This document shows positions 4,375-18,463 of a DNA stretch of 23,235 nt, one piece after another. Under the pieces are notes generated by a model. It was given only the letters and a program-made list of their open reading frames with translations. It had not been told where the DNA came from and did no database searches. This DNA comes from Bdellovibrionales bacterium (lineage in GTDB: Bacteria > Bdellovibrionota > UBA1018 > JADZFF01), in contig JADZFF010000084.1 in NCBI GenBank assembly GCA_020850015.1, forward strand, positions 1-23,235, read 5' to 3'. The position numbers and the translations under genes are program-made. How positions within the stretch are numbered: the stretch's first letter is position 1; the number at the start of each line of letters is the position of its first letter.

Positions 4375-5160
4375 TCACTCCGCGGCGGGCATGGCGGCGG
4401 GGTCGCGGGCGCCGTCCCAGGGGATGGTGTCCGTGGCCGGCTCCAGGATCCTGAGCACCACGCGGCGGTTCCGCATCGTGGCGTTCGAATCCACCTTGCC
4501 GTCGTTCAGCCGCTCCGGGACCCAGGGCCTCGTGTCGCCATACCCGATCGCCAGAAGGTTTTCCGGATCGAATCCACGCTCCACGAAGAGACGTACCACG
4601 CGAGAGGCGCGCGCGGCGCTGAGCTCCCAGTTCGTGGGGTAAGGGCCGCTCAACACGGGCCTGCCGTCGGTGTGGCCCTCCACGACGATCCGGAATTTTT
4701 TCATCTCCATGTACTGGCGCTCGCTCAGGGCGTCCATGATCGAGCGCAGGACCGACCGGCCTTGCTCCGTGACGTTGGCGCTCAGCGTGTCGAAAAACAG
4801 CGTGCTGTGGAAGACCATGGCCACGCCCTCTGGCTCCGAATAGATCACGACGTCCTTCTCGACCCCGTTGCTCTCGACGAGTTGGGTAACAAACCGCGCG
4901 GTCTCCGCGCTCTCGCTCTTGTAGTCGCCGCCGAAGGCCTGGGCCACGGACTCGCGCACGGGCTCGAATTTCCGCTTGTCCAGCGTGGACATGCTGAACA
5001 TCATGATGAAGAAGCCGCAGAGAAGGGTCATCATGTCGGCATAGGAAACGAGCCAGTTCGACTCGTCGTCCGCCGCCTTCTTGGGCGGCTCCTGGCCCTT
5101 GCGGGCCTGGAGATCGTCCTGGATCGCCTGGGCTTTTTTCAGGAAGGAACTGATCGCCAT
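4375..5160 (-). CDS. motB: MotB-type stator protein with OmpA-like peptidoglycan-binding domain
   Basis: N-terminal TM with the proton-channel Asp context NWLVSYADMMTLLCGFFIMMFSMS; C-terminal VEGHTDGRPV and TNWELSAARASRVVRLFVERG. Confidence 0.9.
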   Translation of the reverse strand: MAISSFLKKAQAIQDDLQARKGQEPPKKAADDESNWLVSYADMMTLLCGFFIMMFSMSTLDKRKFEPVRESVAQAFGGDYKSESAETARFVTQLVESNGVEKDVVIYSEPEGVAMVFHSTLFFDTLSANVTEQGRSVLRSIMDALSERQYMEMKKFRIVVEGHTDGRPVLSGPYPTNWELSAARASRVVRLFVERGFDPENLLAIGYGDTRPWVPERLNDGKVDSNATMRNRRVVLRILEPATDTIPWDGARDPAAMPAAE

Positions 5161-5182: not shown

Positions 5183-5968
5183 CTAGGCGGCCTTGCGCAC
5201 CACCCTGTCTTTCGGCAGCACGAACGAGTTGAGCGTCTCGCGCATGCTGATCGGGTTGGTCTGGGACCTCAGCATCACGCAGCCCTCCACCACCATCCGG
5301 CGCAGCGCCACCTCCTCCTCCGTCCGCACGGTGAGGTTCTCCGCAATCGGGAGAAACACGAAGTTCGCGATCGCGATCCCGTAGAGCGTGCCCACGAGAC
5401 CGATCGACATCGCCGGACCGATCATGGCCTCAGCGCCCGGTTTCCCGAGCTGCTGAAGAAGCGCGATCATTCCAAGAGTCGTGGCCAGAAGCCCGAACGC
5501 CGGCGGGAATTTACCGATCGCGCGGAACATGTTGGCCTCGTACATGTAGCGGTGCTCCACGGTCTTGATCCTCTGCTCAAGCGCGTCGCGGATCTCGCGC
5601 TCCGAAAGCACCCCGCCGGCCACGAGCGATACGGCCTCTCGGAGGAAAGGGTGCCTAATGCCGGGCAGCATGTCGTTCAGCGCCGTCACGCCGCCGATCG
5701 AGGCTTTCTTGTTGAGATCCAGGATCTGCTCGATCACCTGGTGATACTCGTTCCTGTGCGTGCCCAGAACCCTCAGAAAAAACACTTTCAAGAGGGCGAC
5801 CAGCTTCGAAACCGGGAACATGATCGACGCCGCGGCCATCGTGCCCCCGCAGACGATCACGACGCCGTGGAAGTTCAGGAAGAACTTGGCATCCATTCCA
5901 CTCTCGTGGATCGATGCGCCCACGATCCCGAGCCCAAGCAATACTCCGAAGAAGGACGAAAAATTCAT
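5183..5968 (-). CDS. motA: MotA-type stator protein
   Basis: MotA layout: N-terminal TM pair (FFGVLLGLGIVGAS / FLNFHGVVIVCGGTMAAA), cytoplasmic loop SIGGVTALNDMLPGIRHPFLREAVSLVAGG, C-terminal AFGLLATTLGMIALLQQL / IGLVGTLYGIAIANFVFLPIAENL. Confidence 0.9.
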   Translation of the reverse strand: MNFSSFFGVLLGLGIVGASIHESGMDAKFFLNFHGVVIVCGGTMAAASIMFPVSKLVALLKVFFLRVLGTHRNEYHQVIEQILDLNKKASIGGVTALNDMLPGIRHPFLREAVSLVAGGVLSEREIRDALEQRIKTVEHRYMYEANMFRAIGKFPPAFGLLATTLGMIALLQQLGKPGAEAMIGPAMSIGLVGTLYGIAIANFVFLPIAENLTVRTEEEVALRRMVVEGCVMLRSQTNPISMRETLNSFVLPKDRVVRKAA

Positions 5969-5969
5969 A

Positions 5970-6494
5970 TCAGGCCGACTCCTTACGGCTCCGCATGCGG
6001 TCCACGGCGGTCTGCCAGAGCTGGTACTGACTCACGACGTAACTTCCGTCCAGCTCCCTCAGACGCATCACCAGATCCTTCACGCAACTCTCGTAGAAGC
6101 GCACCTTCCGATCTCCAGACTCGTTGAGAAAGTGCTTGAACGCCTCCTTCGAAATGAAGAAGGTCCTGCACCTGGACTTCGCCCGAACAGTCGCGGAACG
6201 CGGCTGGTCGTCCACGAGCGACATCTCCCCGAAGTAGCTTCCCGCCGCAAGCTCCCCCACATCGTAGATCTCCTCGGTGCTCGGGTTCTTCTTGAAAACA
6301 CCCACCGCCCCCTCGGCGATGAGGAAAAGGCCCCAGGAAAACTCGCCCTCGACCACGACGTTCGAATAGGCCTCGAAGTCCCTGGCATTTCCGAGCTTGA
6401 GGAGCGCATCAAGCTCGGGGTTCGTGAACGGTGCGAAAAGCTTGATCTCGCGGAGCCACTGCACAGAGGGTTGCGTGAAGTTCGGGTCTACCAT
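5970..6494 (-). CDS. Cyclic nucleotide-binding (CRP/PKA-type) domain protein without DNA-binding domain
   Basis: VVVEGEFSWGLFLIAEGAVGVFKK and GSYFGEMSLVDDQPRSATVRAKSRC cNMP-binding cassette; no C-terminal HTH evident. Confidence 0.87.
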   Translation of the reverse strand: MVDPNFTQPSVQWLREIKLFAPFTNPELDALLKLGNARDFEAYSNVVVEGEFSWGLFLIAEGAVGVFKKNPSTEEIYDVGELAAGSYFGEMSLVDDQPRSATVRAKSRCRTFFISKEAFKHFLNESGDRKVRFYESCVKDLVMRLRELDGSYVVSQYQLWQTAVDRMRSRKESA

Positions 6495-8902
6495 CCGGCC
6501 ACCTTCTTGATTTTGGCGAGCGTGCCATCAGAGCTCGGAGGTGGCGGAGCGGCCTGGAAAGCGTTGGGAGCGGTGCCGTCGCCGTATCCATTCGAGGCAA
6601 ACATGCGTTCGTTGGTTTCCACCAGGTTGATCTTGCCGTCCGTGGACATCTTCTTGATGCGGTTGAGGATCTTGCGCTCCACGCCCGCGTAGGAGTCGCG
6701 ACCCTGCACCTGCACGGCCTCGAGCTCCTCCTCGAGCTCCGCAACCAGGTCGCGCGGGCACTTGCTGAATACCATCTGCCGAATCTCGGCAGTGGTGCCC
6801 TTCAGGAACTGCAGGAGCTCGTCGTGCCTGAGGCTCAGCACCACCTCGAGCAGGTGCTGGTCGCGCAGGTAACGGAGCGTCTCCAAGCTGATCAGCTTGT
6901 TCTTCACGCTGTGCGCGCTGTCCGGGTTGCTGCTCTCCAGGTGACCCACGACGCTTTTCTGTACGTCGAGCCCGGTCTTTTCGAGCAGGCTCACGAGCAC
7001 GTCGGTTCCCGGCAGGGCCTCCGTGTTCAGGCGCGGGTTCTCGTGCCGCTTGCGCTTGAGGGCGCTCGCCACATTGCTGATGTAGTCCTTAGGCAGGTGG
7101 TCGATCCGCGAAAGCTCCGTGAGGATGCTGGTCTTCGTCGTCTCGTCGAGCCGGCGATACACGGCGTCGCGCTTCTGGGGATCGCACTGCGTGAGCACGA
7201 TCGCCTTCACGGTCAGGGACTCGTTGCGGACCAGCTCCAGGACCTGCATGTCGTCCATGTCCACCATGAACTCGAACAGGGCCGTGGATCGGTTACCCAT
7301 GACATAGAGCTTGGACGCGACCGTGATGTTGTGGAGCGCGCGCAGGAGCTCGAGCTTCTCCTCGTCGGAGAGCTTGATCGTGTTCCTGGCGTAGAACTCA
7401 AGAAGCTCGGTCACGTCGCGCTGCAGGCTCGGGTCGCGAAGCATGTCGACGACGATGCCTTCACCGAAGATTTCGATGTACTGCGCGGTGGCTTCCACGC
7501 CCTCCTCGGTGAGGATTCGGCTGAATACCTGCTTCGCCACCTTGGGATTCTCGGCGTAGACCTTAGAGAGGGATTCGATGAAGCCTTCGATCTCGTATCT
7601 GAGCTTCACGCGCGAGGCGCGGTCGTCGCTGCCGGACCCGGACGAGGCCTGAGCGGCGTTGCCGTTGCCCAGGGGGTCTGAGATCAGGTTCTGGAAAATT
7701 CGCTGCACCGGACCTGCGGCATCCGGGTTGCCGTGCGGGCGGTAGGCGGCGAGCGCAAGGAAGATCAGAAGAGAGAGAATCGCGCAGGCAAGCACGAGCC
7801 CGTAGACCTTGAACTTGTTGAGCTCGGCCTGGACGGCGTCGCCGCTCTCCACCCGCTCGATCTTCTCGAATCGCTCGAACTTCTCAGAGCGATTCGTATT
7901 GTCCTGTGAGGAATTGGACGAATTGTTCTGGGACACGGTCTGGTTCTTCTCGGAGCTCGAGAGGCTGCGCTGGTCGAGATACCTCGAACGCGCGTCCCGC
8001 GTGAGCTTCGATGCGGCGTCGGAGCCCCCCTGGCCCACCGAGGCGATACCCCGCGAGACACGGCTCCTGAACTCGGCCATGCGCTCGGGCGACGGGAACT
8101 GCACGGAGCTTCCGTCCACCTCGACGTTCTTGTACATCGCGTTGCGGAGACGGGCCATCTCGAGGATCGAGGAGCGCTCGTCGGGGAAGAGGCCGGAATC
8201 CATCAGGATCTTCGCGCCGATCTTCCGCACGCGCACGGCGGTGTCGCCGTCCTGGAGGAACTCTCCCGTGGATCCGTACTGGGCCTCCTCGAGGTTCACG
8301 GGATCCAGAGCCACGTCGAGGTCGCTCAGCAGGCAGCGGTCCGGGCAGTACTTGTTGAACAGCTCCTCGAGGTTGGAACGGATCTCTTTCGTGACCTTCT
8401 CGCGGATCTCGGCCACCTTGCGGCTGCTCGAGGCCGGCTGCGGGAAACGGATCACCTTCTGCTCGATCGTCACGGGGTAGGAGAGCGCATCGAGGTGCTG
8501 CTGCACGAGGTCCATCACCTTGCCACGCGACACTGGCCCAAGCATCTCGTCCACGAGGATCTTCAGAAGGACGCTCGACGCCCCGATCTCGAGGGATCTG
8601 CTCTGAATGGACTCATCGAAACCCGGCGCGATGGTGTCCGGAATCAGCGTGTCCACGGACGACTCCACCGCCAGTACCTTGCAGTGATCGGAGCAGTAGC
8701 GCTCCAGGAGCGGTTCCACCAACGAGCGAACCTGATTCTCCGCCTCGCGCTTCGCCCGATCCACGGAGCCGGGCCCCGGGGCGCCCGACGCGGGCTGGGA
8801 AAGGGCCGCGAGGGCCAGCGCCGTCCCGGCGAGGCCCGCGCACGCGGCCGTCAGTTTTCTGAAAGAGAAATCCGTTCTCATTCGGAGCTTACCTTCCTCC
8901 AC
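6488..8902 (-). CDS. Membrane-anchored FliG-like protein (signal peptide, duplicated periplasmic domain, TM, cytoplasmic FliG-like region)
   Basis: Signal peptide-like N terminus; TM VYGLVLACAILSLLIFLALAAY; FliG_M-like DMQVLELVRNESLTVKAIVLTQCDPQKRDAVYRRLDETTKTSILTELSRI; FliG_C-like LLQFLKGTTAEIRQMVFSKCPRDLVAELEEELEAVQVQ...VERKILNRIKKMSTDGKINLVE. Confidence 0.82.
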   Translation of the reverse strand: MEEGKLRMRTDFSFRKLTAACAGLAGTALALAALSQPASGAPGPGSVDRAKREAENQVRSLVEPLLERYCSDHCKVLAVESSVDTLIPDTIAPGFDESIQSRSLEIGASSVLLKILVDEMLGPVSRGKVMDLVQQHLDALSYPVTIEQKVIRFPQPASSSRKVAEIREKVTKEIRSNLEELFNKYCPDRCLLSDLDVALDPVNLEEAQYGSTGEFLQDGDTAVRVRKIGAKILMDSGLFPDERSSILEMARLRNAMYKNVEVDGSSVQFPSPERMAEFRSRVSRGIASVGQGGSDAASKLTRDARSRYLDQRSLSSSEKNQTVSQNNSSNSSQDNTNRSEKFERFEKIERVESGDAVQAELNKFKVYGLVLACAILSLLIFLALAAYRPHGNPDAAGPVQRIFQNLISDPLGNGNAAQASSGSGSDDRASRVKLRYEIEGFIESLSKVYAENPKVAKQVFSRILTEEGVEATAQYIEIFGEGIVVDMLRDPSLQRDVTELLEFYARNTIKLSDEEKLELLRALHNITVASKLYVMGNRSTALFEFMVDMDDMQVLELVRNESLTVKAIVLTQCDPQKRDAVYRRLDETTKTSILTELSRIDHLPKDYISNVASALKRKRHENPRLNTEALPGTDVLVSLLEKTGLDVQKSVVGHLESSNPDSAHSVKNKLISLETLRYLRDQHLLEVVLSLRHDELLQFLKGTTAEIRQMVFSKCPRDLVAELEEELEAVQVQGRDSYAGVERKILNRIKKMSTDGKINLVETNERMFASNGYGDGTAPNAFQAAPPPPSSDGTLAKIKKVAGW

Positions 8903-9660
8903 TTGGACTGGTCTGACTTGCGCTCGAGGTAGGCCTTGAGCGCAAGGTTGTTCGGGTCGAGCTTCACGGACTGCTGCCAGGAACGGATCGCAAGATCGCG
9001 GTAGCCGAGTCGGTCGAGCAGGGTCCCGCGCATCTCGTAGAGGCGCGGGTCGGTTGGGAAGCTGCGCAAGAGCGCGTCGGTCTCGAGCAGACCCGCCTCG
9101 TAACGGCCCAGGCGGAAAAGCTGTTTCACCTTGTCGAGCGAGGCGAGATAGCTCGTGCCTCCGCGCGGGCCCGGGTCCTCCACGGGCCGAAGCCCGAGGC
9201 CCTGCTCAATCTCCTGCCGCTCGCGGTCGTCGGCCGGATTGCCCTGCGGCATGCGGTTCACGATCTCCAGATCCGTGGCCGTGGGTTTGCGCTCGGTGTA
9301 GCTCTGATCCATGGGTACGCCGTCGGCGTCGAGCGAGGCCGGCCTCCGGCCTTCGCCGCCTTCGATCGACTCGGCGAACTGAGGCGTGAGCGGCACCATG
9401 AAGTCCTGGAACTCCGGCTGGTCGCCCGGCAGCTCCACCTCGAGCGAGCGATGGCCCTTCTTGGTGCGGAACACCACGCGGTCCTGGCTCTGCTTCTGAA
9501 TCCACGCGGTATCGAGGAATGGGTTCTCGATCACTCCCTTCCCCGCCCCGCCATTCGGGGAGGGGCCGAGCCCGATCGATGAGCATCCGGAGGCGATGCT
9601 CAGTACGACCAGGGCGCAGAGGGTCACCGCCGCGGTCATCACCGCGTCCATCCGGGCCAT
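8878..9660 (-). CDS. TPR-containing lipoprotein
   Basis: Lipobox VVLSIASGC; C-terminal TPR-like YEAGLLETDALLRSFPTDPRLYEMRGTLLDRLGYRDLAIRSWQQSVKLDPNNLALKAYLERK. The track ORF starts at 9720; internal ATG at 9660 or 9651 is more plausible. Confidence 0.8.
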   Translation of the reverse strand: MARMDAVMTAAVTLCALVVLSIASGCSSIGLGPSPNGGAGKGVIENPFLDTAWIQKQSQDRVVFRTKKGHRSLEVELPGDQPEFQDFMVPLTPQFAESIEGGEGRRPASLDADGVPMDQSYTERKPTATDLEIVNRMPQGNPADDRERQEIEQGLGLRPVEDPGPRGGTSYLASLDKVKQLFRLGRYEAGLLETDALLRSFPTDPRLYEMRGTLLDRLGYRDLAIRSWQQSVKLDPNNLALKAYLERKSDQSKWRKVSSE

Positions 9661-9691
9661 ACGGGCCCGCCGGCGATCCTGATGAGCCCCC

Positions 9692-10882
9692 TCAGAAGAG
9701 GGCACTGATTCCCAAGCCAATCTCCACTCCCGTCACTGATCCCGCCTCGCTGCCGTCGATGAACCGGGTGGCCTTGGGCCTGAAACCCAGGTTTCCGTTC
9801 ACCGCCCAGTGCTTTCCCAATCGCCATTCGTAACCCGCGCGCACCAGTCCCCCGAGGAATCCCGAGGCATAGGTGCCCCCGATCCCGGCGAAGATGCTGT
9901 GCCTCACCTGATTGAAGTTCTCGAGCTCCCCGATGAGGTTCCACGCATGCACGAAGAGCAGCGTGAGGTTGAAGCTCGCGTAAAGCTTGTTGTCCGCGTC
10001 GGTGGTGTTTCCCACCAGCTGGTTCGCGTCGAGGAGGTAGTTCAACTCGAATCCGACTTCCTTCTTCCGGTTGTCGTACCGCTCCATCATCCGGAACCCG
10101 ATGCCCAAGGTGCTGGAGTACTCTTCCACGTCCCGCTCGAAGAAATAGTAGATGGTCGGCCGGTAGAGGATCGTGGGCACGTAGTCCACGCTCTTCCTCG
10201 CGTCCTCGACCTGCGAGTAGTCCACGCCCCGGCGGAAGGCGGCGGCGCGCGAGGTCTCGGAGTTGTAGCTCTTCGACCACACCACGGCCCCAGTCTCGGA
10301 GTCCGTGATGAACATCGAGAGCATCAGACCGGTGGGCTGGTAGGCGAAGGCCACGTCCATGAAGTTCGAGATCCCGCTCTGCGAGGCCAGACGTGAGAGC
10401 TCCTGCGGGTTGCTCGTGGGCGTGGTGATCACGACGTAGTCGTTGTTGAGGCGCGCCTGCTTGGACTTGCAGGGCAGGCACTGGATGATCTTGCTCTTCG
10501 TATTGTTTAGGATCCGCTCGGTGACGAGCAGCTCGAGGTGGCTCTTGAACGACGGCGGGATGTTCTCGCTCGTGGCCACGTTGCGGATCGAGAGGTTCTT
10601 CAGCCCCTCGACCTCGCCGTTCTTCAGGTCGTACTCGAAATCGGACACGACATCGTCGAGCACCTGGTAGAAATTGCGGACGCGCTCGTCTTCGCTTGCG
10701 GCCGGCGCGGGCGCCACCGGGCCCTGCTGAAGCGGAGCTTCGGCGGTAGTGGAGGCGGCCTGGCTGGACTTCACCGCATCTGCTGCCCCCGCAGAGGGCG
10801 GAAGGAGGGCGCAGAGGGCCATCAGCCCTCCCAAGACGCCCGAAAACTTTAACGTGATGCGGCAATGCACGTGATGCTTCAC
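9692..10882 (-). CDS. Secreted protein with CsgG/FlgO-like N-terminal domain and probable C-terminal outer-membrane beta-barrel
   Basis: GTG start preceded by GGGGAGGAAGG; signal peptide ending PPSAGA; TERILNNTKSKIIQC and GLMLSMFITDSETGAVVWSKSY segments; alternating barrel-like strands ending in aromatic Phe (GLGISALF). Confidence 0.65.
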   Translation of the reverse strand: MKHHVHCRITLKFSGVLGGLMALCALLPPSAGAADAVKSSQAASTTAEAPLQQGPVAPAPAASEDERVRNFYQVLDDVVSDFEYDLKNGEVEGLKNLSIRNVATSENIPPSFKSHLELLVTERILNNTKSKIIQCLPCKSKQARLNNDYVVITTPTSNPQELSRLASQSGISNFMDVAFAYQPTGLMLSMFITDSETGAVVWSKSYNSETSRAAAFRRGVDYSQVEDARKSVDYVPTILYRPTIYYFFERDVEEYSSTLGIGFRMMERYDNRKKEVGFELNYLLDANQLVGNTTDADNKLYASFNLTLLFVHAWNLIGELENFNQVRHSIFAGIGGTYASGFLGGLVRAGYEWRLGKHWAVNGNLGFRPKATRFIDGSEAGSVTGVEIGLGISALF

Positions 10883-10937
10883 CCTTCCTCCCCAGGCTCT
10901 TCGGCGAAGTTCCTAATAGCTTGAATACGTTAGGGTT

Positions 10938-10985: not shown

Positions 10986-11984
10986 ATGGGGGGAAGAACC
11001 ATAAAAACAGCCGCAATCCTGGGAAGCACCCTGCTTGCCGGCTGCTCTACGCCCCAGGGTGCCATTCCCCTGCCGGAGCTGCCCGAGGTGCCGGCCTACG
11101 TACGGGTTCCCCACCCCGGCAACGCCGATTTGAACGAGGTCCGGGCCCTATTCCAGAGCCCCGAGGCCCCAACTCCTGAAACCCTCGCCGCCTGCACCGC
11201 CGACTACGAGCGGATCCAGACGATGACCCAGAGCAAGGAAGACCACTCGCAGGCCGCGCAGGAGCTCGTGGGCCTGCGTCCCGAGGCCTATCACTGGTGC
11301 CTGTACTGGCAGTTCGTGCGCCTCGAGGACCGCATCAAGGAACTCCCGTACCATGACGAGCGCCAGGCCGAGGTCCTCAAGGCCTATGCCTTCATTGTTC
11401 CCGTGGCCCGCGCATTCCGCGAGGTCTACCAGGACTCGCGGTATTTGCGGATCGCCGCCTTCCGCTACCAGAAGGTCAGCGAACGCATCTTCTTCAGACA
11501 GGTGGCCCTGACCTCCGAAGGGGCACGTGACCTGCTGGCCGCCCAGTCGCTGGATCCGCACTCGGTGTGGCAAGCGATGAAAGACACTCAGTCTCCCACT
11601 TTGGAGCGGCTCGGGTTCGTGCCCCCGCCCTCCGAGGTGGACACCTTGATCAAAGAAGCCCCAGCCGGACCCGCCACGGCTGACGTGCCCGCTCCCGCGG
11701 GTGATGCGCCTCCGGCGGCCGCGACGGAACCCGCCGCTGCGCCCGCCGAAGCCGAAGTGGACTCGGAATGGGAGAAGGAGCTCCAGGCGATGGGGGACAA
11801 GGCAGAACCTCCAGCCGCGGCTCCGGTGGACCCCGCGGCGCCTCCCGCGCCCGAGGCCACCGCCCAGGCCGCGCCCCCACCGGCTGATCCGGCCCGCGCC
11901 CCCAGCGCGACGACCGAGCCCTCCCTCGAAGGAATCGAGGAGTTCTCGGCACCGACCGACCCTCCGGCAAACCCTGCCGATTGA
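10986..11984 (+). CDS. Lipoprotein of unknown function with Ala/Pro/Glu-rich C-terminal tail
   Basis: N terminus MGGRTIKTAAILGSTLLAGCST has a good lipobox (LLAGC); C terminus is PA/E-rich low complexity. Confidence 0.78.
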   Translation: MGGRTIKTAAILGSTLLAGCSTPQGAIPLPELPEVPAYVRVPHPGNADLNEVRALFQSPEAPTPETLAACTADYERIQTMTQSKEDHSQAAQELVGLRPEAYHWCLYWQFVRLEDRIKELPYHDERQAEVLKAYAFIVPVARAFREVYQDSRYLRIAAFRYQKVSERIFFRQVALTSEGARDLLAAQSLDPHSVWQAMKDTQSPTLERLGFVPPPSEVDTLIKEAPAGPATADVPAPAGDAPPAAATEPAAAPAEAEVDSEWEKELQAMGDKAEPPAAAPVDPAAPPAPEATAQAAPPPADPARAPSATTEPSLEGIEEFSAPTDPPANPAD

Positions 11985-12026
11985 CCCCTCACGCGCCGCG
12001 CCTGACCCTCTGGATTGGGGGACTCT

Positions 12027-12998
12027 ATGCGCTGGAATTGCCCGCACTGCTCGATTGAACTGTACCTGGACGACGCTCGCGTCGGGAACGGCTGGTCCTT
12101 CGCGCGCTGCTACAGCTGCGCGGGATTCAGCCTGGTCCGCAAGTCCAACGTGAATACGATCCGGATCGACCAGGCCCCGACGCCGGAAACGATCCTTCAG
12201 CCCCAACCTTCCGTTCCGCGCGTCGAGGTCCCCGCGCAGGGGCCGGTGGCGAACGCGCTGACCCGCCTCGGCGTGGCTCAGAAGAACCTCGGAGAGGCCC
12301 AGACCTCAAGGCCGCAGGTGATCCCCGGCCGCCGCACTCAGCCGCCCGGCCAGACCACGGCGGCGGCTGCCGCCCCGGCCGCGAAAAACATCTTTGGCAC
12401 CCGAACTTTGCCTCAACCGCTTCCGCTCAACCCGCGCACCAGCTCCACTCCTAAGGCTGCGGCGGCCCGCCGTTCGCGCGGGCTGATTCCAGTCGTGCTC
12501 GGGATCATGGCCGTGCTGGTCACAGGCAGCGGCGCCTTCCTTTACGTCCAAGGGCAGAACATGTGGGACCGCGCCCGCGCGGAGCTGGGCCCGGACACCG
12601 ATGGCGTGAAGCTCGGCGCCTCGGCGCCTCAGCGCGCGGCCGGAGCCAAGGCCAGGAAGTCGCAACACAAGGACGCGACGATCTTCTCCGACCGCATCGG
12701 CCAGGGCGCCATGGCCCCCAACCGGGAAATGGGACCCGGAGCCGTGGTCCGCGCCGACGAAGAGACCGACGGGATCCCCGGCCGCATGGTGGTGCGGCCC
12801 ATCCAAAACGCGGTGAACCTGCGGATGGGCCCGGGGACGAAGTACCCCATCGTGGGCCAGGCCGACGCGACGATCACCTACACCGTGACGGAATGGCGCG
12901 AACAGTGGTTCCGCATCATCCCGAACACGGGGCCTGCGGAAGAGGCCTGGATCCGCAACGACTACGTGAACACGGTCAAAGAGACTTCGCAGGAGTGA
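12027..12998 (+). CDS. MJ0042-like zinc-ribbon, single TM, bacterial SH3-like domain protein
   Basis: MRWNCPHC...CYSCAGFSLV zinc ribbon; TM LIPVVLGIMAVLVTGSGAFLYV; C-terminal AVNLRMGPGTKYPIVGQ...WFRIIP...EEAWIRNDYV SH3b-like. The track ORF starts at 12015; ATG 12027 fits better. Confidence 0.8.
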   Translation: MRWNCPHCSIELYLDDARVGNGWSFARCYSCAGFSLVRKSNVNTIRIDQAPTPETILQPQPSVPRVEVPAQGPVANALTRLGVAQKNLGEAQTSRPQVIPGRRTQPPGQTTAAAAAPAAKNIFGTRTLPQPLPLNPRTSSTPKAAAARRSRGLIPVVLGIMAVLVTGSGAFLYVQGQNMWDRARAELGPDTDGVKLGASAPQRAAGAKARKSQHKDATIFSDRIGQGAMAPNREMGPGAVVRADEETDGIPGRMVVRPIQNAVNLRMGPGTKYPIVGQADATITYTVTEWREQWFRIIPNTGPAEEAWIRNDYVNTVKETSQE

Positions 12999-14508
12999 TC
13001 GGCTCGCAGGCCCAGATCAGGATCTCCTTGGCCTTGAGGCCCCAGCGCAGGATCTCATTTCTCTGGGCCACGGCGCATCTCGCGTTCTTGAACCGGGGCT
13101 CGCCGGAGTACCGGTTGTCCGAGACGTAGAAGACGGAGCGCTCAAGCCGCGGCCAGGTTTGCGGGGTGTCGGCTGGCAAGTCGCCGTCCAGCCCGAAGAA
13201 CCGCGGCCATTCGTCCCAGTCGCGAATCGTCTTCGGAGAAAGCGTCGCTCGGTTGGGGTCGCCGCCTGCCCGCGCGATCGCCGCGGCCGCCTGCGAGGCC
13301 GTCTGGTAGCGGGATCCGATCACGGGCACCTCCGATTTCGCGAGCGGCTCGAGCGCCTGCCTCCAGCCGTAGAGGTCGTTCGTCACGTCCCACTTCGGGT
13401 CGGGCGCGTCCTTTCCCCGCGCGAGGATCGATGCCGCGGCCGTGAACACGGGCGCGTGGCATGCCAGGAGCATCAGCGCCACCAAGGGAAAACCCCAGGC
13501 CAGGTGCAGGCGCGCCAGGCTCCGCTCGCCCGTCGATGCAAGGCCCGAGGCCGCGCGGTAGCCGAGCTCCCAAGCCAGCGGAATCCACACCACCATCGGC
13601 CAGTGGGGCTTGAAGTCCGCGATCAGGGGCTGGAAAAAATAGACGAGCGCGGGCGGCGCCACCCAGATCGCCGTGAACCTCGCCACCTCGTTTCGACGGT
13701 CGATCCACAGCCTCCTCCCGAACCAGATCAGGTACAGCACGAGCGCCGGGCCGCCGAGCCCCAACTGACTTCCCCAGAAGCGCAGCCAGCGCAGGATGGA
13801 GAAACCGCCGGAATGGCGATCCTTCAATTGGTAAAGCAGCGACACCCACTCGTGTTCGAGATTCCAGGCCACCGTCGGCGCCGCGGCCACGAGCCCCCCC
13901 AGGAAGATCGCCGCGAGCGCGGGAACCCTCCGCTTGCGCGCAGGCCAGACGCAGACCGCGGCGGAAAGGGCCACGAGCACCCCGGAGTGCTTCGAGAGCG
14001 TGGCGATGAGCACGCCGGCGAAGAGCAGCGCCGCGCCGGGAAGGTTCTGGGCGGACACCCGCCAGGCACCCCAGAAGGCCAACGCCCAGCCCAGCAGGAG
14101 CGGAAGGTCCGGCACCATCATCCAGCCCGCGGCGCCGAAACCAGGAAGCGTGAGCAACATGGCACCGGCGGCCCAGGCGTAGTGCCGGTGCACGCCCAGG
14201 CTCAGAAGCCAGCGGGAGCCGATGAAGGCCAAGCCGCCCGCGCAAAGCGCGGCGGGGAGGCGGACCACGAAGGGGTGCGCGGAGCCGAACAGGGGGCGCA
14301 GGAGCCCCTCCGCGGCCGCGATCAGCCAGGCCACGAACGGAGGGTGGTAGGCGTAGCCCAGGGCGGGGCGCTGAGAGAGCACCCAGTAGTAGGCTTCGTC
14401 GTCGGAGAGCCCCAGCAGCGCGCCGTGCGCGGCGAAGAGAGCGAAGATCAGCGCGGCGATGCCCGCGCCCGCGGGAAGCCTGGGCTCAGTTGACTGAGCC
14501 ACCGTCAC
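12976..14508 (-). CDS. Glycosyltransferase family 39 / ArnT-like membrane transferase
   Basis: Multi-TM protein; GLSDDEAYYWVLSQRPALGYAYHPPFVAWLIAAAEGL matches PMT_2/ArnT-type acidic loop; MVPDLPLLLGWALAFW. Confidence 0.85.
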   Translation of the reverse strand: MTVAQSTEPRLPAGAGIAALIFALFAAHGALLGLSDDEAYYWVLSQRPALGYAYHPPFVAWLIAAAEGLLRPLFGSAHPFVVRLPAALCAGGLAFIGSRWLLSLGVHRHYAWAAGAMLLTLPGFGAAGWMMVPDLPLLLGWALAFWGAWRVSAQNLPGAALLFAGVLIATLSKHSGVLVALSAAVCVWPARKRRVPALAAIFLGGLVAAAPTVAWNLEHEWVSLLYQLKDRHSGGFSILRWLRFWGSQLGLGGPALVLYLIWFGRRLWIDRRNEVARFTAIWVAPPALVYFFQPLIADFKPHWPMVVWIPLAWELGYRAASGLASTGERSLARLHLAWGFPLVALMLLACHAPVFTAAASILARGKDAPDPKWDVTNDLYGWRQALEPLAKSEVPVIGSRYQTASQAAAAIARAGGDPNRATLSPKTIRDWDEWPRFFGLDGDLPADTPQTWPRLERSVFYVSDNRYSGEPRFKNARCAVAQRNEILRWGLKAKEILIWACEPITPAKSL

Positions 14509-15520
14509 CGCCCTGCTCGCGGAACACGTAGGCGGGAACCTCGAACCGGATCACGGTGCTGATGCCTTCCTTGAACCGCTCCCAGTACCCGTGCGCGTGC
14601 CGTGCGTCCGCCGTGGGAAGCTCCAGGGTCAGCGTGGGAATCCCACGCTCCTGCCCGGCGTAGTTTCCGAGACTGCCGGGGAAAAACCCGCCATGCTGGG
14701 CTTTCACACGGGAGCGGAGCTCCAGGCACTTGTGCACGTACTCCTTGGGAAACTGCTTGAGGGCGATGGACATCGGGCCGTCGTAGTCCATGAAGTTCAG
14801 GGGCGAGTGCACACTCAACACTTTGTGGGGCTGCACCTCCTCGATGAGCCTCACCTGGAAGCGGGTCTCGGGCTCCGAGTTAGGCCCGGTGCCCGGATAG
14901 CGGCGCGGATTTCCGCCGAAGCGCTTGCGCCACTTCTGGAGCGCCTCGCGCGACCAGTCGGCCGTGCCGAAGTTGCGGTTCACGTCCACGCCGTTTGCGT
15001 TGGTGCGGGTGCGCCTCTCAGCGTAGAAGCCGTCCGGGTTCACGAGCGGAGCCACGATCACGCGAGCCTCCGTGAGGCTCTGCGGATGCTCTCCGAGCCA
15101 CTGCACGAGTTGGAGGGCCACGTAAAGAGGGGTGATCTCATCCGGGTGCACCATGGAGAAGATGAGCGTGGTGTTCTCCTCCGCCTGGGCGTTCCCGAAC
15201 TCCGCGTAAACCAGCGGGCGGCCCCGGACCGAGGTCCCGCCGAGCTTCCACCTGCGCCAGTCACAGGGGGGCAGGGTCCATCCCAGCCTGTTCACCTCGG
15301 CATCGAGGTCCGCGCACCAGCTCTTGAGCGCCGCTTCGTCGCTGGCGCGGCCGATTGCAGGAGCCGAACCCGTGGTCCCGGCCGTGGTCTCAGGCACCTC
15401 GTCCGTGGACGCGGCCTTCTTGCCGCCGAAAGCCCAGGCATCGCCCGCCGCGAGCGCGAACACACCCAGCCCGGCGGCCCCGGCGCAGAGTGCGGCTGCG
15501 ATGGTTCTCCCAAGGATCAT
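14486..15520 (-). CDS. Secreted M14-family zinc carboxypeptidase (murein peptide amidase-like)
   Basis: Signal peptide; zinc motif VHPDEITPLYVALQLV; VNPDGFYAERRTNANGVDVNRNFG; catalytic-Glu context GIPTLTLELP. Confidence 0.85.
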   Translation of the reverse strand: MILGRTIAAALCAGAAGLGVFALAAGDAWAFGGKKAASTDEVPETTAGTTGSAPAIGRASDEAALKSWCADLDAEVNRLGWTLPPCDWRRWKLGGTSVRGRPLVYAEFGNAQAEENTTLIFSMVHPDEITPLYVALQLVQWLGEHPQSLTEARVIVAPLVNPDGFYAERRTRTNANGVDVNRNFGTADWSREALQKWRKRFGGNPRRYPGTGPNSEPETRFQVRLIEEVQPHKVLSVHSPLNFMDYDGPMSIALKQFPKEYVHKCLELRSRVKAQHGGFFPGSLGNYAGQERGIPTLTLELPTADARHAHGYWERFKEGISTVIRFEVPAYVFREQGGDGGSVN

Positions 15521-15538
15521 GGTTCCCGTCTCCGACGC

Positions 15539-16168
15539 CTAGGCCGTCTTTCCCGCGTTTCCGAGCTTCCGGCGCCCCAGATACCATTTTGCCACAAACA
15601 CGAGGATGATCGCCCCGATGAGGCCGAAGATCCCGAACTGCACCCTTTTGATCACCCGGATGATGGAATCCACCTCGGCCCCAAAATAAAAGACGGAATA
15701 AACGATGGCCGGAACGGAGAGCACGGCTGCCAGGCCGTCATAGGTGAAAAACACCCGGGGCGGCAGCTTCAGGGTGCCCGCCGAAAAATAAATGGCGGCG
15801 CGCATGCCCGGCATGAACCTGGCCATGAAGACGACCTTGTTCCCCCTCCGGTGCAGCTGACTCTGGACGTAATCCAGCCGCTCCGGGGAAAGCACCTTCC
15901 GGAACAACCACCTGTTCGCGAGCTTCCGGCCGTACTTGCGTCCCAACAGAAAAATGGCGCTGTCCCCGAACATCACGCCCGCGAAGCAGACAAAGATCGT
16001 CACCCAGACGTTGGCCTCGCCCATGTAGGCGATGTAGCCGGCGGCGAAGAGCGTGACGTCCTCCGGGATCGGGAGCCCGAATCCGCAGGCCAACAGAATG
16101 AGGAAGATCGACAGGTAGATGGCCAGGGGCCCGGAGAACTGAGTGAGCATGTCGACGAGCCAATCCAC
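15539..16168 (-). CDS. DedA family (SNARE-associated / VTT domain) membrane protein
   Basis: GFGLPIPEDVTLFAAGYIAYMG, GVMFGDSAIFLLGRKYG, FMARFMPGMRAAIYFSAGTL; GTG start. Confidence 0.9.
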   Translation of the reverse strand: MDWLVDMLTQFSGPLAIYLSIFLILLACGFGLPIPEDVTLFAAGYIAYMGEANVWVTIFVCFAGVMFGDSAIFLLGRKYGRKLANRWLFRKVLSPERLDYVQSQLHRRGNKVVFMARFMPGMRAAIYFSAGTLKLPPRVFFTYDGLAAVLSVPAIVYSVFYFGAEVDSIIRVIKRVQFGIFGLIGAIILVFVAKWYLGRRKLGNAGKTA

Positions 16169-16174
16169 GTGCCG

Positions 16175-17095: not shown

Positions 17096-17140
17096 GGTTG
17101 ACCAGTGTAATCATCCAAGAAGGTGTGGTAAAGCCGCCGG

Positions 17141-18459
<1,319 letters not shown>

Positions 18460-18463
<4 letters not shown>

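What the first reader, a model, noticed from the sequence alone, without database searches (positions are those of the whole stretch)
6488..8902. FliG-like region fused to its own TM helix and periplasmic domain
Canonical FliG is soluble and docks on FliF. Here the N-, M- and C-like FliG segments (roughly 6540-7650) follow a TM segment (about 7744-7806) and a ~320-aa periplasmic region after a signal peptide. The protein would be a natural membrane-anchored rotor-like unit, replacing the FliF-FliG interaction by covalent anchoring. The C-terminal part FLKGTTAEIRQMVFSKCPRDLVAELEEELEAVQ...ILNRIKKMSTDGKINLV aligns by eye over its full length with the FliG_C helix set.
Basis: partly seen in the sequence, partly recalled or inferred. 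Interest (0 to 1): 0.8.

Follow-up and report, generated by a model that had tools for sequence, protein, structure and literature searches.

The report
Membrane-anchored FliG rotor with own stator
An uncultured Bdellovibrio-like bacterium fuses the flagellar rotor protein FliG to a membrane helix and two ring-building-type periplasmic domains, in a conserved operon with its own MotAB stator; this looks like a stripped-down, undescribed relative of the flagellar motor.

Summary
ORF 6488-8902 (-), which more likely starts at ATG 8881 (797 aa), encodes these parts in order:
- a signal peptide;
- two homologous alpha-beta-beta-alpha-beta periplasmic modules;
- a disordered linker;
- one TM helix;
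- a complete cytoplasmic FliG N/M/C region with a conserved charged torque helix.

First, the periplasmic modules have the ring-building-motif (RBM) fold, and their best structural matches are the FliF MS-ring and T3SS ring proteins. The protein is therefore FliF/SctJ-like plus FliG, not FliG on an arbitrary anchor. Second, the gene sits in a tightly coupled operon: OM protein, TPR lipoprotein, fusion, cNMP-binding protein, MotA, MotB. That operon is conserved in about 70 Bdellovibrionota MAGs, and a five-gene core recurs in Bradymonadales-like genomes with a one-RBM version of the fusion. A FliA (sigma-28)-type promoter precedes the operon.

The FliM-binding EHPQR motif, RBM3 and all export-apparatus genes are absent.

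Best reading: the fusion is a rotor-like partner of a dedicated flagellar-type stator. Whether this is an autonomous motor or a flagellar add-on is unresolved. I found no description of it in the literature searched.

The parts
10900..10924 (-). FliA (sigma-28)-type promoter-like element, TCAAG-N15-CCGAA, upstream of the first operon gene
   Evidence: The motif T[ACT]AA[AG]-N14-17-CCGA[AT] occurs upstream of the OM396 homologue in 34 of 56 loci. Shuffles give 0.63 +/- 0.75 and the reverse complement gives 0. It matches the B. bacteriovorus attack-phase/FliA consensus TTAAG-N16-CCGATA (PMC3627812). The same motif lies upstream of flagellin genes in related loci.
9692..10882 (-). OM396: signal peptide, conserved periplasmic domain with a CxxC motif, and a C-terminal beta-barrel-like region ending in Phe. 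Putative outer-membrane partner.
   Evidence: Present in 54 of 54 related loci that hold enough upstream DNA. Homologues occur in Bradymonadales-like clusters (HMM E 3e-26). Pfam and PDB give nothing significant: only a sub-threshold DUF3575 hit (E 0.014, below the cutoff) and chance-level PDB matches (E >= 0.16). The barrel and OM location are inferred from the sequence pattern.
8878..9720 (-). TPR lipoprotein (lipobox SIASGC). The real start is probably downstream of the TTG at 9720.
   Evidence: TPR_2 and TPR_14 hits. The lipobox is visible in the sequence. Syntenic in 54 of 54 loci. Homologue in L080/L082 (HMM E 9e-30).
6488..8902 (-). RBM-RBM-TM-FliG fusion protein (probable CDS 6488..8881, 797 aa)
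8780..8881 (-). Signal peptide (aa 8 to about 41 in GTG numbering)
   Evidence: Hydrophobic segment at aa 17-35. Family N-termini are all signal-peptide-like, mostly with AxA-type sites.
8450..8773 (-). Periplasmic module 1 (aa 44-151): alpha-beta-beta-alpha-beta, with a conserved CxxxC
   Evidence: AF2 pLDDT about 90. Foldseek best matches are FliF and YscD. C70 and C74 are invariant.
8102..8434 (-). Periplasmic module 2 (aa 157-267): a duplicate of module 1
   Evidence: hhalign of module 1 against module 2 gives probability 96%, E 2.7e-9 over 111 columns. C186 and C190 are invariant.
7886..8047 (-). Low-complexity Ser/Asn-rich disordered periplasmic linker (aa 286-339)
   Evidence: pLDDT below 50. 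Length and sequence vary across the family.
7811..7885 (-). Near-invariant juxtamembrane periplasmic motif E-x-F-E-R-x-EKIERVExGDAVQAEL-x-KFK (aa 340-364)
   Evidence: Column counts over 41 sequences. Function unknown.
7739..7810 (-). Single transmembrane helix (aa 365-388)
   Evidence: Kyte-Doolittle maximum of 2.78. The AF2 helix 355-386 covers it.
7289..7627 (-). FliG_N-like helical domain (aa 426-538)
   Evidence: Foldseek aligns 319 columns with the 321-residue full-length FliG 3hjl. The PDB profile match begins at FliG residue 63. The Pfam FliG_N hit is weak: 7 of 41 members, best E 0.014.
7037..7273 (-). FliG_M domain (aa 544-622). The EHPQR motif is replaced by N-E-S-L-T.
   Evidence: Pfam PF14841. 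Column counts.
6596..7009 (-). FliG_C domain (aa 632-769)
   Evidence: Pfam PF01706, E 6.7e-16. Matches to FliG structures.
6719..6763 (-). Charged torque helix (aa 714-728, K-C-P-R-D-L-V-A-E-L-E-E-E-L-E)
   Evidence: The HMMER alignment to T. maritima FliG puts E. coli R281 at D718 (with K/R717 adjacent) and D288/D289 at E725/E726. These positions are near-invariant in 41 sequences.
6491..6511 (-). Conserved C-terminal tail motif I-K-K-V-A-G-W, after a disordered segment
   Evidence: Function unknown.
5970..6494 (-). Stand-alone cyclic-nucleotide-binding protein. Its start overlaps the fusion gene's stop.
   Evidence: Pfam cNMP_binding, E 7.6e-18. The phosphate-binding cassette FGEMSL...PRSAT is intact in the sequence. 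Present at this position in 52 of 62 loci.
5183..5968 (-). MotA, a 4-TM flagellar-type (PomA/MotP-like) stator A subunit
   Evidence: Pfam MotA_ExbB. NCBIfam MotP/MotA/PomA full-length hits at 4e-44 to 3e-39, below the equivalog cutoffs. P173 and P222 are invariant, and the R90 equivalent is K/R in 55 of 68.
4375..5160 (-). MotB, with plug and OmpA-like peptidoglycan-binding domain
   Evidence: Pfam MotB_plug and OmpA. The Asp32 equivalent is invariant in 66 of 66.
10986..11984 (+). Conserved divergently transcribed lipoprotein (u332). Membership in the system is uncertain.
   Evidence: Next to the cluster in 55 of 77 loci. The lipobox LLAGC is in the sequence.
12015..12998 (+). Zinc-ribbon / TM / SH3_3 protein. 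It lies directly downstream of motB in most related loci and is relocated here.
   Evidence: Pfam SH3_3. Synteny in 50 of 77 loci. The CxxC...CxxC motifs and the TM are in the sequence.

Best explanation
The gene encodes a one-polypeptide equivalent of the flagellar MS-ring/FliG rotor unit. After signal-peptide cleavage, two tandem RBM-fold domains lie in the periplasm. One helix crosses the inner membrane, and a complete FliG (N, M, C) hangs in the cytoplasm.

Proposed mechanism (inferred):
1. The RBM domains and the FliG ARM domains oligomerise the protein into a membrane ring.
2. The ring presents its charged torque helices to the cytoplasmic domains of the co-encoded MotA5B2-type stator units.
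3. The stator units are anchored to peptidoglycan through MotB and driven by ion flow through the invariant MotB Asp. They turn the ring.
4. The periplasmic RBM part couples this movement to the co-encoded TPR lipoprotein and the outer-membrane-type protein.
5. The small cNMP-binding protein encoded between rotor and stator genes gates or brakes the rotor-stator contact.

The operon is transcribed from a FliA-type (motile or attack-phase) promoter.

The machine has no export apparatus, no RBM3 or beta-collar, and no FliM-binding motif. It is therefore not a flagellar basal body. I favour an autonomous second rotor-stator machine of unknown output.

Shown: domain identities, topology, conserved residues, synteny and the promoter motif. 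Inferred: ring formation, rotation, coupling to the outer membrane, and the role of cNMP.
For: - FliG_M and FliG_C score above the Pfam cutoffs. A family profile hits FliG structures. Foldseek's top 13 hits are all FliG, spanning almost the full length of 3hjl.
- The torque-helix charges are near-invariant.
- AF2 gives two alpha-beta-beta-alpha-beta modules with pLDDT 90. Their best PDB matches are FliF 7bk0_B (4.1e-6), FliF 6scn_A (2.7e-5) and YscD (2.4e-4). The two modules are an internal duplication.
- The N-terminal region is exported: signal peptides are found throughout the family, there are conserved Cys pairs, and there is a single later TM helix.
- The genes are translationally coupled (overlapping or abutting stops and starts).
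- motAB follow directly in 61 of 62 loci, and the OM396 and TPR genes precede the fusion in 54 of 54 loci.
- The same five-gene core (OM396-like, TPR, MotA, MotB, RBM-TM-FliG-like) occurs with a one-RBM, roughly 600-aa version of the fusion in Bradymonadales-like genomes and with a 969-aa version.
- MotB Asp32, the plug and the OmpA domain are present. MotA P173 and P222 are invariant, and the basic R90 equivalent is conserved.
- MotA is the flagellar 4-TM type.
- A FliA-type promoter is present in 34 of 56 loci.
Against: - The RBM assignment rests on fold only. No sequence-level link to FliF or SctJ was found: Pfam YscJ_FliF has no hit in 41 members, the PDB profile search found nothing, and hhalign against a 9-sequence FliF alignment gave probability below 1%.
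- Foldseek TM-scores are low (0.27), because only the two-module pattern matches, not their relative orientation.
- A disordered linker of about 55 residues separates the RBM modules from the membrane. That is unlike FliF or SctJ and is awkward for rigid torque transmission.
- The MotA E98 equivalent is not conserved.
- Carriers are flagellated: flagellin genes lie within about 8 kb in 25 of 77 loci, and the FG-2 lineage has a polar flagellum (PMC13200544). Together with the FliA-type promoter, this makes a flagellum-associated role plausible.
- No multimer model or experiment supports ring formation.
Confidence: 0.5

Rival explanations
1. Flagellar add-on. The module is part of, or docks onto, the host's canonical flagellar motor. 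The MotAB pair would be an extra flagellar stator set. The RBM-FliG protein, the TPR lipoprotein and the OM protein would form accessory rings or scaffolds, such as an outer FliG-like ring, a stator-recruiting scaffold or a stator reservoir. This would be comparable in role to PflA/PflB/FlgP, MotX/Y or FlgX in complex motors.
For: - A FliA-type promoter is shared with flagellin genes of the same loci.
- Flagellin genes lie within about 8 kb in 25 of 77 loci.
- Carriers are flagellated (PMC13200544).
- MotA and MotB are flagellar-type.
- TPR and OM or lipoprotein scaffolds are typical of complex motors (PMC12054838 abstract, listed).
Against: - In B. bacteriovorus FliA drives two thirds of attack-phase promoters, including non-flagellar genes, so the promoter is not specific to flagella (PMC3627812).
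- No basal-body, C-ring or export gene is adjacent in any of 77 loci.
- A fixed ring bearing a functional torque helix next to the stators would oppose MotA rotation.
- MotA and MotB score far below the flagellar equivalog cutoffs.
- The Bradymonadales-like version sits in an 11-gene cluster of lipoproteins and OM barrels with no flagellar genes.
Confidence: 0.28
2. TonB/TolA-like force transducer that does not form a ring. Single or few copies of the protein would use the FliG_C domain as a cytoplasmic handle on a rotating MotA pentamer. Pulling or winding force would pass through the TM helix and the long disordered periplasmic linker to the N-terminal domains, which would bind the TPR/OM396 complex at the outer membrane.
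For: - The layout is a globular periplasmic domain, a long low-complexity linker (Pro-rich in the short family; P0254 even hits the TonB_N polyproline model), one TM helix, and a neighbouring 5:2-type motor genes.
- OM and lipoprotein partners are conserved.
Against: - Both domain types used (RBM and FliG) are ring formers in every characterised system.
- TonB and TolA couple through their TM helix inside or beside the motor, not through a cytoplasmic torque helix.
- The stator is the 4-TM flagellar type with plug and PG anchor, not the ExbBD/TolQR type.
Confidence: 0.17
3. Zorya-like anti-phage defence, or another non-motility use of a MotAB homologue.
For: MotB hits ZorB models at 1.7e-17, and the cNMP protein hits the cNMP-binding domains of Pycsar effectors.
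Against: - There is no ZorA hit for MotA, and no ZorC or ZorD.
- The matches are generic to the MotB and cNMP-binding domains and weaker than those to flagellar MotB models (147.5 against 61.5 bits).
- The cluster lies in a stable syntenic chromosomal position across about 70 genomes, unlike a defence island.
Confidence: 0.02

Closest known systems
Flagellar rotor-stator core: FliF (MS-ring) + FliG + MotA5B2
   Same: - RBM-fold periplasmic domains, a TM helix and FliG N/M/C are arranged in the same order across the membrane.
- The charged torque helix is conserved.
- The stator is a flagellar-type 4-TM MotA with a MotB carrying plug, the Asp32 equivalent and an OmpA domain.
- The promoter is FliA-type.
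   Different: - One polypeptide replaces two proteins.
- A cleavable signal peptide replaces FliF TM1.
- Only two RBM modules are present, with no RBM3 or beta-collar.
- There is no sequence similarity to FliF.
- The EHPQR (FliM-binding) motif is lost.
- There are no fliM/N, flhA/B, fliPQR, rod or hook genes nearby.
- There are extra partners (OM396, TPR lipoprotein, cNMP-binding protein).
- A long disordered linker separates the RBM modules from the membrane.
Chlamydiaceae FliF-FliG fusion (Bergeron 2016, PMC4768692)
   Same: It is a natural single protein with a signal sequence or TM, two RBM-like periplasmic modules, a TM helix and a cytoplasmic FliG-like domain. It occurs in an organism where it is not part of a full flagellum.
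   Different: The chlamydial protein is about 330 aa and, according to that paper, carries only a FliG_M-like region. It is discussed as a possible injectisome partner, not as the partner of a dedicated stator. The protein here has full FliG N/M/C with a torque helix and its own motAB.
Engineered or spontaneous FliF-FliG fusions of Salmonella and Vibrio (e.g. PDB 8z4d; PMC11481574, PMC6079021)
   Same: These have a covalent MS-ring-to-FliG link and still assemble rings and motors. They show that such a fusion can work. The profile here hits the FliG part of 8z4d (1.1e-5).
   Different: Those are full-length FliF joined to FliG inside a complete flagellum. This one is natural, lacks RBM3 and stands outside any flagellar gene cluster.
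SctJ (T3SS inner-ring lipoprotein)
   Same: An exported N-terminus, two tandem RBM domains, a C-terminal TM helix and ring formation at the inner membrane. T3SS ring proteins (YscD, PrgH, PrgK) appear in the Foldseek list.
   Different: There is no lipobox, no sequence similarity and no T3SS genes here, and the cytoplasmic tail is a whole FliG.
Other 5:2 ion-driven motors with dedicated partners (ExbBD-TonB, TolQR-TolA, GldLM, AglRQS-Glt, ZorAB)
   Same: A MotAB-family motor is encoded next to a single-pass inner-membrane partner and to OM, lipoprotein and TPR components that span the envelope.
   Different: Those motors are 3-TM ExbB/TolQ-type, or have their own periplasmic shaft (GldM), and none uses FliG. 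Here the coupling element is the flagellar torque-helix domain and the stator is flagellar-type (PMC12505986).
Second-messenger brakes and clutches of the flagellar motor (YcgR, MotI/DgrA, FlgX)
   Same: A small nucleotide-binding protein is encoded with the stator and rotor genes, and could act at the FliG-MotA interface.
   Different: The domain here is a cAMP/cGMP-type cNMP-binding domain, not PilZ. Its role is inferred only from gene position (52 of 62 loci).

Membership tests
FliG (flagellar motor switch protein) | FliG_C domain (PF01706) above the Pfam gathering score | tested here: met
   58.9 bits against 23.3, aa 654-760. All 41 members match.
FliG (flagellar motor switch protein) | FliG_M domain (PF14841) above the gathering score | tested here: met
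   32.7 bits against 25, aa 553-622. All 41 members match.
FliG (flagellar motor switch protein) | FliG_N domain | tested here: inconclusive
   PF14842 matches only 7 of 41 members, best E 0.014. However, Foldseek aligns 319 columns with the 321-residue 3hjl, and the PDB profile match starts at FliG residue 63.
FliG (flagellar motor switch protein) | Charged torque helix (E. coli K264, R281, D288, D289, R297) | tested here: met
   K701, K/R717-D/E718, E725, E726 and R735 are near-invariant. The basic residue is shifted by one position.
FliG (flagellar motor switch protein) | EHPQR motif of FliG_M that binds FliM | tested here: not met
   The equivalent positions read N-E-S-L-T. Only the Glu is kept (alignment).
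FliG (flagellar motor switch protein) | Equivalog-level score (NCBIfam TIGR00207) | tested here: not met
   56.9 bits against a cutoff of 226.7.
FliG (flagellar motor switch protein) | Soluble protein that docks non-covalently on the FliF C-terminus and is encoded with fliF/fliH/fliM | tested here: not met
   It is covalently joined to a TM helix and an exported domain. No flagellar basal-body genes are found in 77 loci.
FliF / SctJ (YscJ_FliF, ring-building-motif proteins) | alpha-beta-beta-alpha-beta RBM fold in tandem, in the periplasm | tested here: met
   AF2 pLDDT 90. Best Foldseek hits are FliF (4.1e-6 and 2.7e-5) and YscD (2.4e-4), with PrgH and PrgK lower.
FliF / SctJ (YscJ_FliF, ring-building-motif proteins) | Sequence match to PF01514, or profile-profile similarity to FliF | tested here: not met
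   No PF01514 hit at E<=10 in 41 members. hhalign against a 9-sequence FliF alignment gives probability below 1%. The PDB profile search is empty. A profile search of 1.84 billion proteins listed 140 hits: lengths of the strong hits, and Pfam scans of 10 sampled ones, fit the long or short RBM-FliG architecture. None of those sampled matched the FliF model; the other hits were not scanned.
FliF / SctJ (YscJ_FliF, ring-building-motif proteins) | RBM3 with beta-collar (FliF-specific S-ring) | tested here: not met
   Only two modules are present, followed by a disordered linker.
FliF / SctJ (YscJ_FliF, ring-building-motif proteins) | Assembly into a closed ring at the inner membrane | not testable with these tools
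   No multimer prediction was available.
MotAB flagellar-type stator (the neighbouring genes) | MotB with plug, conserved channel Asp and OmpA-like PG-binding domain; MotA with 4 TM helices and conserved P173 and P222 | tested here: met
   Pfam MotB_plug, OmpA and MotA_ExbB. Asp32 is kept in 66 of 66, and P173 and P222 in 68 of 68. Full-length hits to MotP, MotA and PomA.
MotAB flagellar-type stator (the neighbouring genes) | MotA charged pair R90 / E98 facing FliG | tested here: inconclusive
   The R90 equivalent is K/R in 55 of 68. The E98 equivalent is variable, but D74, E84, K87 and K88 are conserved nearby. The alignment in this loop is uncertain.
MotAB flagellar-type stator (the neighbouring genes) | Equivalog-level score to a named flagellar stator family | tested here: not met
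   Best scores are 150.6 bits against 394 (MotP) and 147.5 against 283 (MotD).
Zorya defence system | ZorA (MotA-like with a long cytoplasmic tail) plus ZorC/D or ZorE | tested here: not met
   No PADLOC hit for MotA or for any non-MotB partner.

The most novel reading that the evidence does not exclude
The operon builds a second kind of FliG/MotAB rotary machine that is not a flagellum. It would be a ring of RBM-TM-FliG subunits spun by its own stators, with no export apparatus and no C-ring, linked through a TPR lipoprotein to an outer-membrane protein. Predatory-type Bdellovibrionota and Bradymonadales-like bacteria would use it for some envelope or surface task, such as surface movement or prey contact. 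It would be either a radically reduced offshoot of the flagellar motor or a relative of its pre-export ancestor.
Probability: 0.35. Interest if true: 0.92.

Novelty: new variant of a known kind. Interest (0 to 1): 0.78.

Why it matters
FliG and flagellar-type MotAB are known to work together only inside the flagellum. This is a conserved module found in two phyla. In it, a FliF-like ring-building part and a complete FliG are one protein, paired with a private stator and with outer-membrane partners, but with no export gate, rod or switch complex.

If it is real, there are two outcomes. It could be the simplest natural rotor-stator pair available for structural and single-molecule work on torque generation. 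Or it could be a new accessory architecture of fast predatory-bacterium motors.

Either way it bears on how the MS-ring/FliG/stator core relates to the secretion part of the flagellum, which is a long-standing question in flagellar evolution. It also offers a natural test of covalent MS-ring-to-FliG coupling at a 1:1 ratio.

Tried and rejected
- An exact look-up of the window's own product (P0001) found no record.
- Sequence links between the periplasmic region and FliF/SctJ were sought four ways, and all were negative:
  - a Pfam scan of 41 members;
  - hhalign of the full-length family alignment A1 against E. coli FliF;
  - a PDB profile search;
  - hhalign against a 9-sequence FliF alignment built from E. 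coli and plasmid-borne fliF genes.
- The last large protein search, with E. coli FliF as query, returned only relatives at 85% identity or more. It was of no use for a diverse profile.
- The sigma-70 promoter and terminator scan of the operon gave nothing above shuffles.
- Zorya and other defence readings were rejected.
- PDB profile and Pfam searches of the OM396 family found nothing significant: only chance-level PDB hits and a sub-threshold DUF3575 match.
- Five literature searches for FliG-like, non-flagellar or membrane-anchored FliG found no description of this system. The MotAB evolution paper does not mention it.
- I first took the roughly 600-aa second-tier hits of the periplasmic profile to be FliF. 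They are not. They are a shorter RBM-TM-FliG-like family.

Full report
**What is there.** The minus-strand ORF 6488..8902 is real. It belongs to a MAG annotated as Bdellovibrionales: the 100%-identical NCBI product P0001 is 797 aa. The junction with the upstream gene reads ...GGAGGAAGGTAAGCTCCGAATGAGA..., so an ATG at 8881 overlaps the upstream stop as ATGA. That ATG is the likelier start than the GTG at 8902. GC3 of about 0.82 and more than 120 full-length homologues at about 50% identity show it is a real, conserved gene.

**Cytoplasmic half: FliG.**
- Pfam gives FliG_M (aa 553-622) and FliG_C (aa 654-760), both above their gathering scores. All 41 aligned family members match both.
- A family profile hits solved FliG structures: 3ajc at 4.6e-11, and full-length 3hjl residues 63-327.
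- The AF2 model is helical from aa 426 to 769. Its 13 best PDB matches by Foldseek are all FliG, and 319 columns align with the 321-residue 3hjl. N-, M- and C-like parts are therefore all present.
- In the HMMER alignment to T. maritima FliG, the family segment S-P-[KR]-[DE]-L-V-x-E-L-E-E-E-L lies on the torque helix. E. coli D288/D289 correspond to E725/E726, R281 to D/E718 with K/R717 next to it, R297 to R735, and K264 to K701. These positions are near-invariant in 41 sequences.
- The EHPQR motif that binds FliM is replaced by N-E-S-L-T, and the MFXF hinge by L-V-S-[ILV].
- The NCBIfam FliG equivalog score is far below its cutoff: 56.9 against 226.7.
- This is a true FliG homologue, but it is not the flagellar switch protein.

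**Topology.**
- Hydropathy finds only two hydrophobic segments, aa 17-35 and aa 361-390.
- Every family member starts with a signal-peptide-like sequence, mostly ending in an AxA-type site.
- The region between the two segments carries two invariant CxxxC pairs.
- The N-terminal 320 residues are therefore exported, and the FliG part is cytoplasmic.
- One caution: FliG/MgtE_N-like ARM domains do occur in the periplasm in the E-ring protein FlgY (PMC13023049). Topology should therefore be confirmed experimentally.

**Periplasmic half: two RBM-fold modules.**
- AF2 of aa 40-290 (60-sequence alignment, pLDDT 90, pTM 0.69) gives two consecutive alpha-beta-beta-alpha-beta modules. The two are homologous to each other: hhalign probability 96%, E 2.7e-9.
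- Foldseek against PDB ranks the Salmonella FliF MS-ring first (7bk0_B at 4.1e-6, 6scn_A at 2.7e-5). Next comes the T3SS ring protein YscD (2.4e-4). Further MS-ring, PrgH and PrgK entries lie lower, among generic two-layer alpha/beta hits. FliF also appears directly after the FliG hits when the whole model is searched.
- TM-scores are low (0.27), because the relative orientation of the two modules differs.
- No sequence-level link to FliF or SctJ could be found by any route.
- The statement is therefore that these have the ring-building-motif fold. Demonstrated homology to FliF cannot be claimed.
- After the modules come a disordered Ser/Asn-rich linker of about 55 residues, a near-invariant charged juxtamembrane motif (EKIERVExGDAVQAEL) and the TM helix.

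**Surroundings.**
- On the same strand, with overlapping or abutting stops and starts, lie in order:
  - a 396-aa exported protein with a CxxC motif and a beta-barrel-like C-terminus ending in Phe;
  - a TPR lipoprotein;
  - the fusion;
  - a 174-aa cNMP-binding protein;
  - MotA;
  - MotB.
- MotA is the 4-TM flagellar type. It gives full-length NCBIfam hits to MotP, MotA and PomA at about 1e-40, below the equivalog cutoffs. P173 and P222 are invariant.
- MotB has the plug, an invariant Asp32 equivalent and an OmpA domain.
- The MotA loop keeps a basic pair at the R90 position and conserved D74, E84, K87 and K88. The E98 equivalent varies.

**Conservation of the cluster.**
- A scan of one genome per species found 73 loci, all in Bdellovibrionota-type MAGs. 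One of them is FG-2, from a magnetotactic lineage with a single thick polar flagellum (PMC13200544).
- motA-motB follow the fusion directly in 61 of 62 loci with enough downstream DNA. The OM protein and the TPR lipoprotein precede it in 54 of 54. The cNMP gene is present in 52 of 62.
- A zinc-ribbon/TM/SH3 protein usually follows motB. In the window, and in its closest relative L005, that gene has been moved to the other side of the cluster.

**A wider superfamily.**
- A profile of the periplasmic region alone, searched against 1.84 billion representative proteins, found 140 hits. About 70 are full-length family clusters of 700-990 aa.
- A second tier of proteins of about 570-620 aa matches only the first module.
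- These second-tier proteins are not FliF. They have a signal peptide, one RBM-like module with a CxxRC motif, a Pro-rich linker, a TM helix and a FliG_C/MgtE_N-like C-terminal half.
- One member is labelled Persicimonas (Bradymonadales).
- In three such genomes the gene lies directly after motA-motB. Profiles built from the window's cluster find homologues of the OM396 protein (3e-26), the TPR lipoprotein (9e-30), MotA and MotB in two of them, L080 and L082; in the third (L084) genes of matching size sit upstream but were not tested.
- A 969-aa variant has the same order, with two uncharacterised genes of matching size (403 and 208 aa) upstream of MotA-MotB-fusion.
- The pairing of an RBM-TM-FliG protein with a private MotAB, and in the clusters tested with the two envelope proteins, is therefore ancient or repeatedly retained across two phyla.

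**Regulation.**
- Upstream of the first gene sits TCAAG-N15-CCGAA (10924-10900).
- The pattern T[ACT]AA[AG]-N14-17-CCGA[AT] is present at this place in 34 of 56 loci. Shuffles give 0.63 +/- 0.75, and the reverse complement gives none.
- The same pattern precedes flagellin genes in the same loci.
- It equals the FliA/sigma-28 consensus TTAAG-N16-CCGATA mapped in B. bacteriovorus. There it drives two thirds of attack-phase promoters, including many non-flagellar genes (PMC3627812).
- The operon is therefore probably expressed in the motile or attack state. This does not by itself make it flagellar.

**Interpretation.**
- The parts are those of the flagellar rotor-stator core, reduced to one rotor polypeptide and a stator. 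There is no export gate, rod, RBM3 collar or FliM/FliN switch.
- The most economical mechanism is that the fusion oligomerises through its RBM and FliG ARM domains. It then offers its conserved torque helices to the co-encoded MotA pentamers, which turn it.
- The periplasmic modules would connect to the TPR lipoprotein and the OM protein. The cNMP-binding protein would modulate engagement.
- I give this reading 0.5 overall, with an autonomous machine favoured over a flagellar add-on.
- Rivals, with my probabilities:
  - a flagellar accessory ring or scaffold (0.28), supported by the promoter type, nearby flagellins and flagellated hosts;
  - a non-ring, TonB-like force transducer (0.17), suggested by the long periplasmic linker;
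  - a defence system (0.02), rejected by PADLOC.

**Comparison with what is known.**
- The nearest natural precedent is the chlamydial FliF-FliG fusion of about 330 aa, with two RBMs and a FliG_M-like tail. It is not described with a stator of its own (PMC4768692).
- Engineered FliF-FliG fusions in Salmonella and Vibrio show that such fusions can assemble rings.
- Five literature searches, plus a reading of the 2025 MotAB evolution paper, found no description of this system.
- I rate it a new variant of a known kind. It would rise to a new kind of machine if it proves independent of the flagellum.

Noticed in passing
window 8878-8902: The listed GTG start (8902) is probably wrong. An ATG at 8881 overlaps the upstream stop codon (ATGA), follows a GGAGGA motif and reproduces the 797-aa NCBI product.
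   Followed up: yes
window 6491-6511: A conserved C-terminal tail motif, I-K-K-V-A-G-W (terminal Trp in 27 of 41), follows about 30 disordered residues. Flagellar FliG has no equivalent and the short family lacks it. It may be a docking peptide.
   Followed up: partly
window 7811-7885: The most conserved stretch of the exported region is a charged juxtamembrane motif (E-x-F-E-R-x-EKIERVExGDAVQAEL), not the folded modules. Its partner is unknown; the MotB plug region is one guess.
   Followed up: partly
window 10986-14508 against L001/L004: The block holding the u332 lipoprotein, the zinc-ribbon/TM/SH3 protein and a 510-aa multi-TM protein lies upstream of the operon in the window and in L005. 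In most loci the SH3 protein and the 510-aa protein lie downstream of motB. This is a local rearrangement that leaves the six-gene core intact.
   Followed up: partly
L080 1120-13365; L082 890-13292; L084 1627-13423: Bradymonadales-like genomes carry an 11-gene cluster. It has two pairs of a large lipoprotein and a small OM beta-barrel, then the OM396-like protein, the TPR lipoprotein, MotA, MotB, a one-RBM FliG-like fusion, a 317-388-aa lipoprotein and a 168-180-aa TM protein. By eye, the C-terminus of that last protein resembles a TonB C-terminal domain. Pfam gave no hit, so this is untested.
   Followed up: partly
L080 6226-8295: The 689-aa gene call joins the OM396-like and TPR lipoprotein genes. 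An internal lipoprotein signal peptide (…LMGASWLAGGCSS) shows these are two genes merged by a frameshift or assembly error in a long-read contig.
   Followed up: partly
L009 (contig CAZGCK010000167.1): This is the only locus with enough downstream DNA where motAB do not follow the fusion gene. The SH3-protein and 510-aa-protein homologues follow instead. It may reflect a deletion or a chimeric contig.
   Followed up: no
L047, L048, L051, L054, L056, L057, L059, L067, L074: A subclade, with the lowest identity to the window (41-46%), lacks the cNMP-binding gene. motA starts about 110-140 nt after the fusion gene. The regulator is therefore optional.
   Followed up: partly
window 8878-9720: The TPR lipoprotein ORF starts at a TTG 40 codons before its lipobox. 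An internal Met (MARMDAVMTAAV...) about 20 codons in would give a normal lipoprotein signal peptide, so the annotated length is probably too long.
   Followed up: no
L001 2634-4948 and about 24 other loci: One or two flagellin genes lie 3-6 kb upstream of the cluster, separated from it by an M48 peptidase and small unknown genes. Several carry the same FliA-type promoter motif.
   Followed up: partly
window 14486-18463: M14 carboxypeptidase, a VTT-domain protein, a XerC/D-type tyrosine recombinase and a 440-aa GidA-family protein form a block that is syntenic with L001-L004. This is ordinary chromosomal context, not a mobile element.
   Followed up: partly
L032 (Bdellovibrionota bacterium FG-2): One carrier is a MAG from magnetically sorted, magnetosome-forming vibrioid cells. 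They have a single thick polar flagellum and a pointed anterior pole (class Bdellonasia; PMC13200544). These cells can be enriched physically and would suit cryo-ET.
   Followed up: partly
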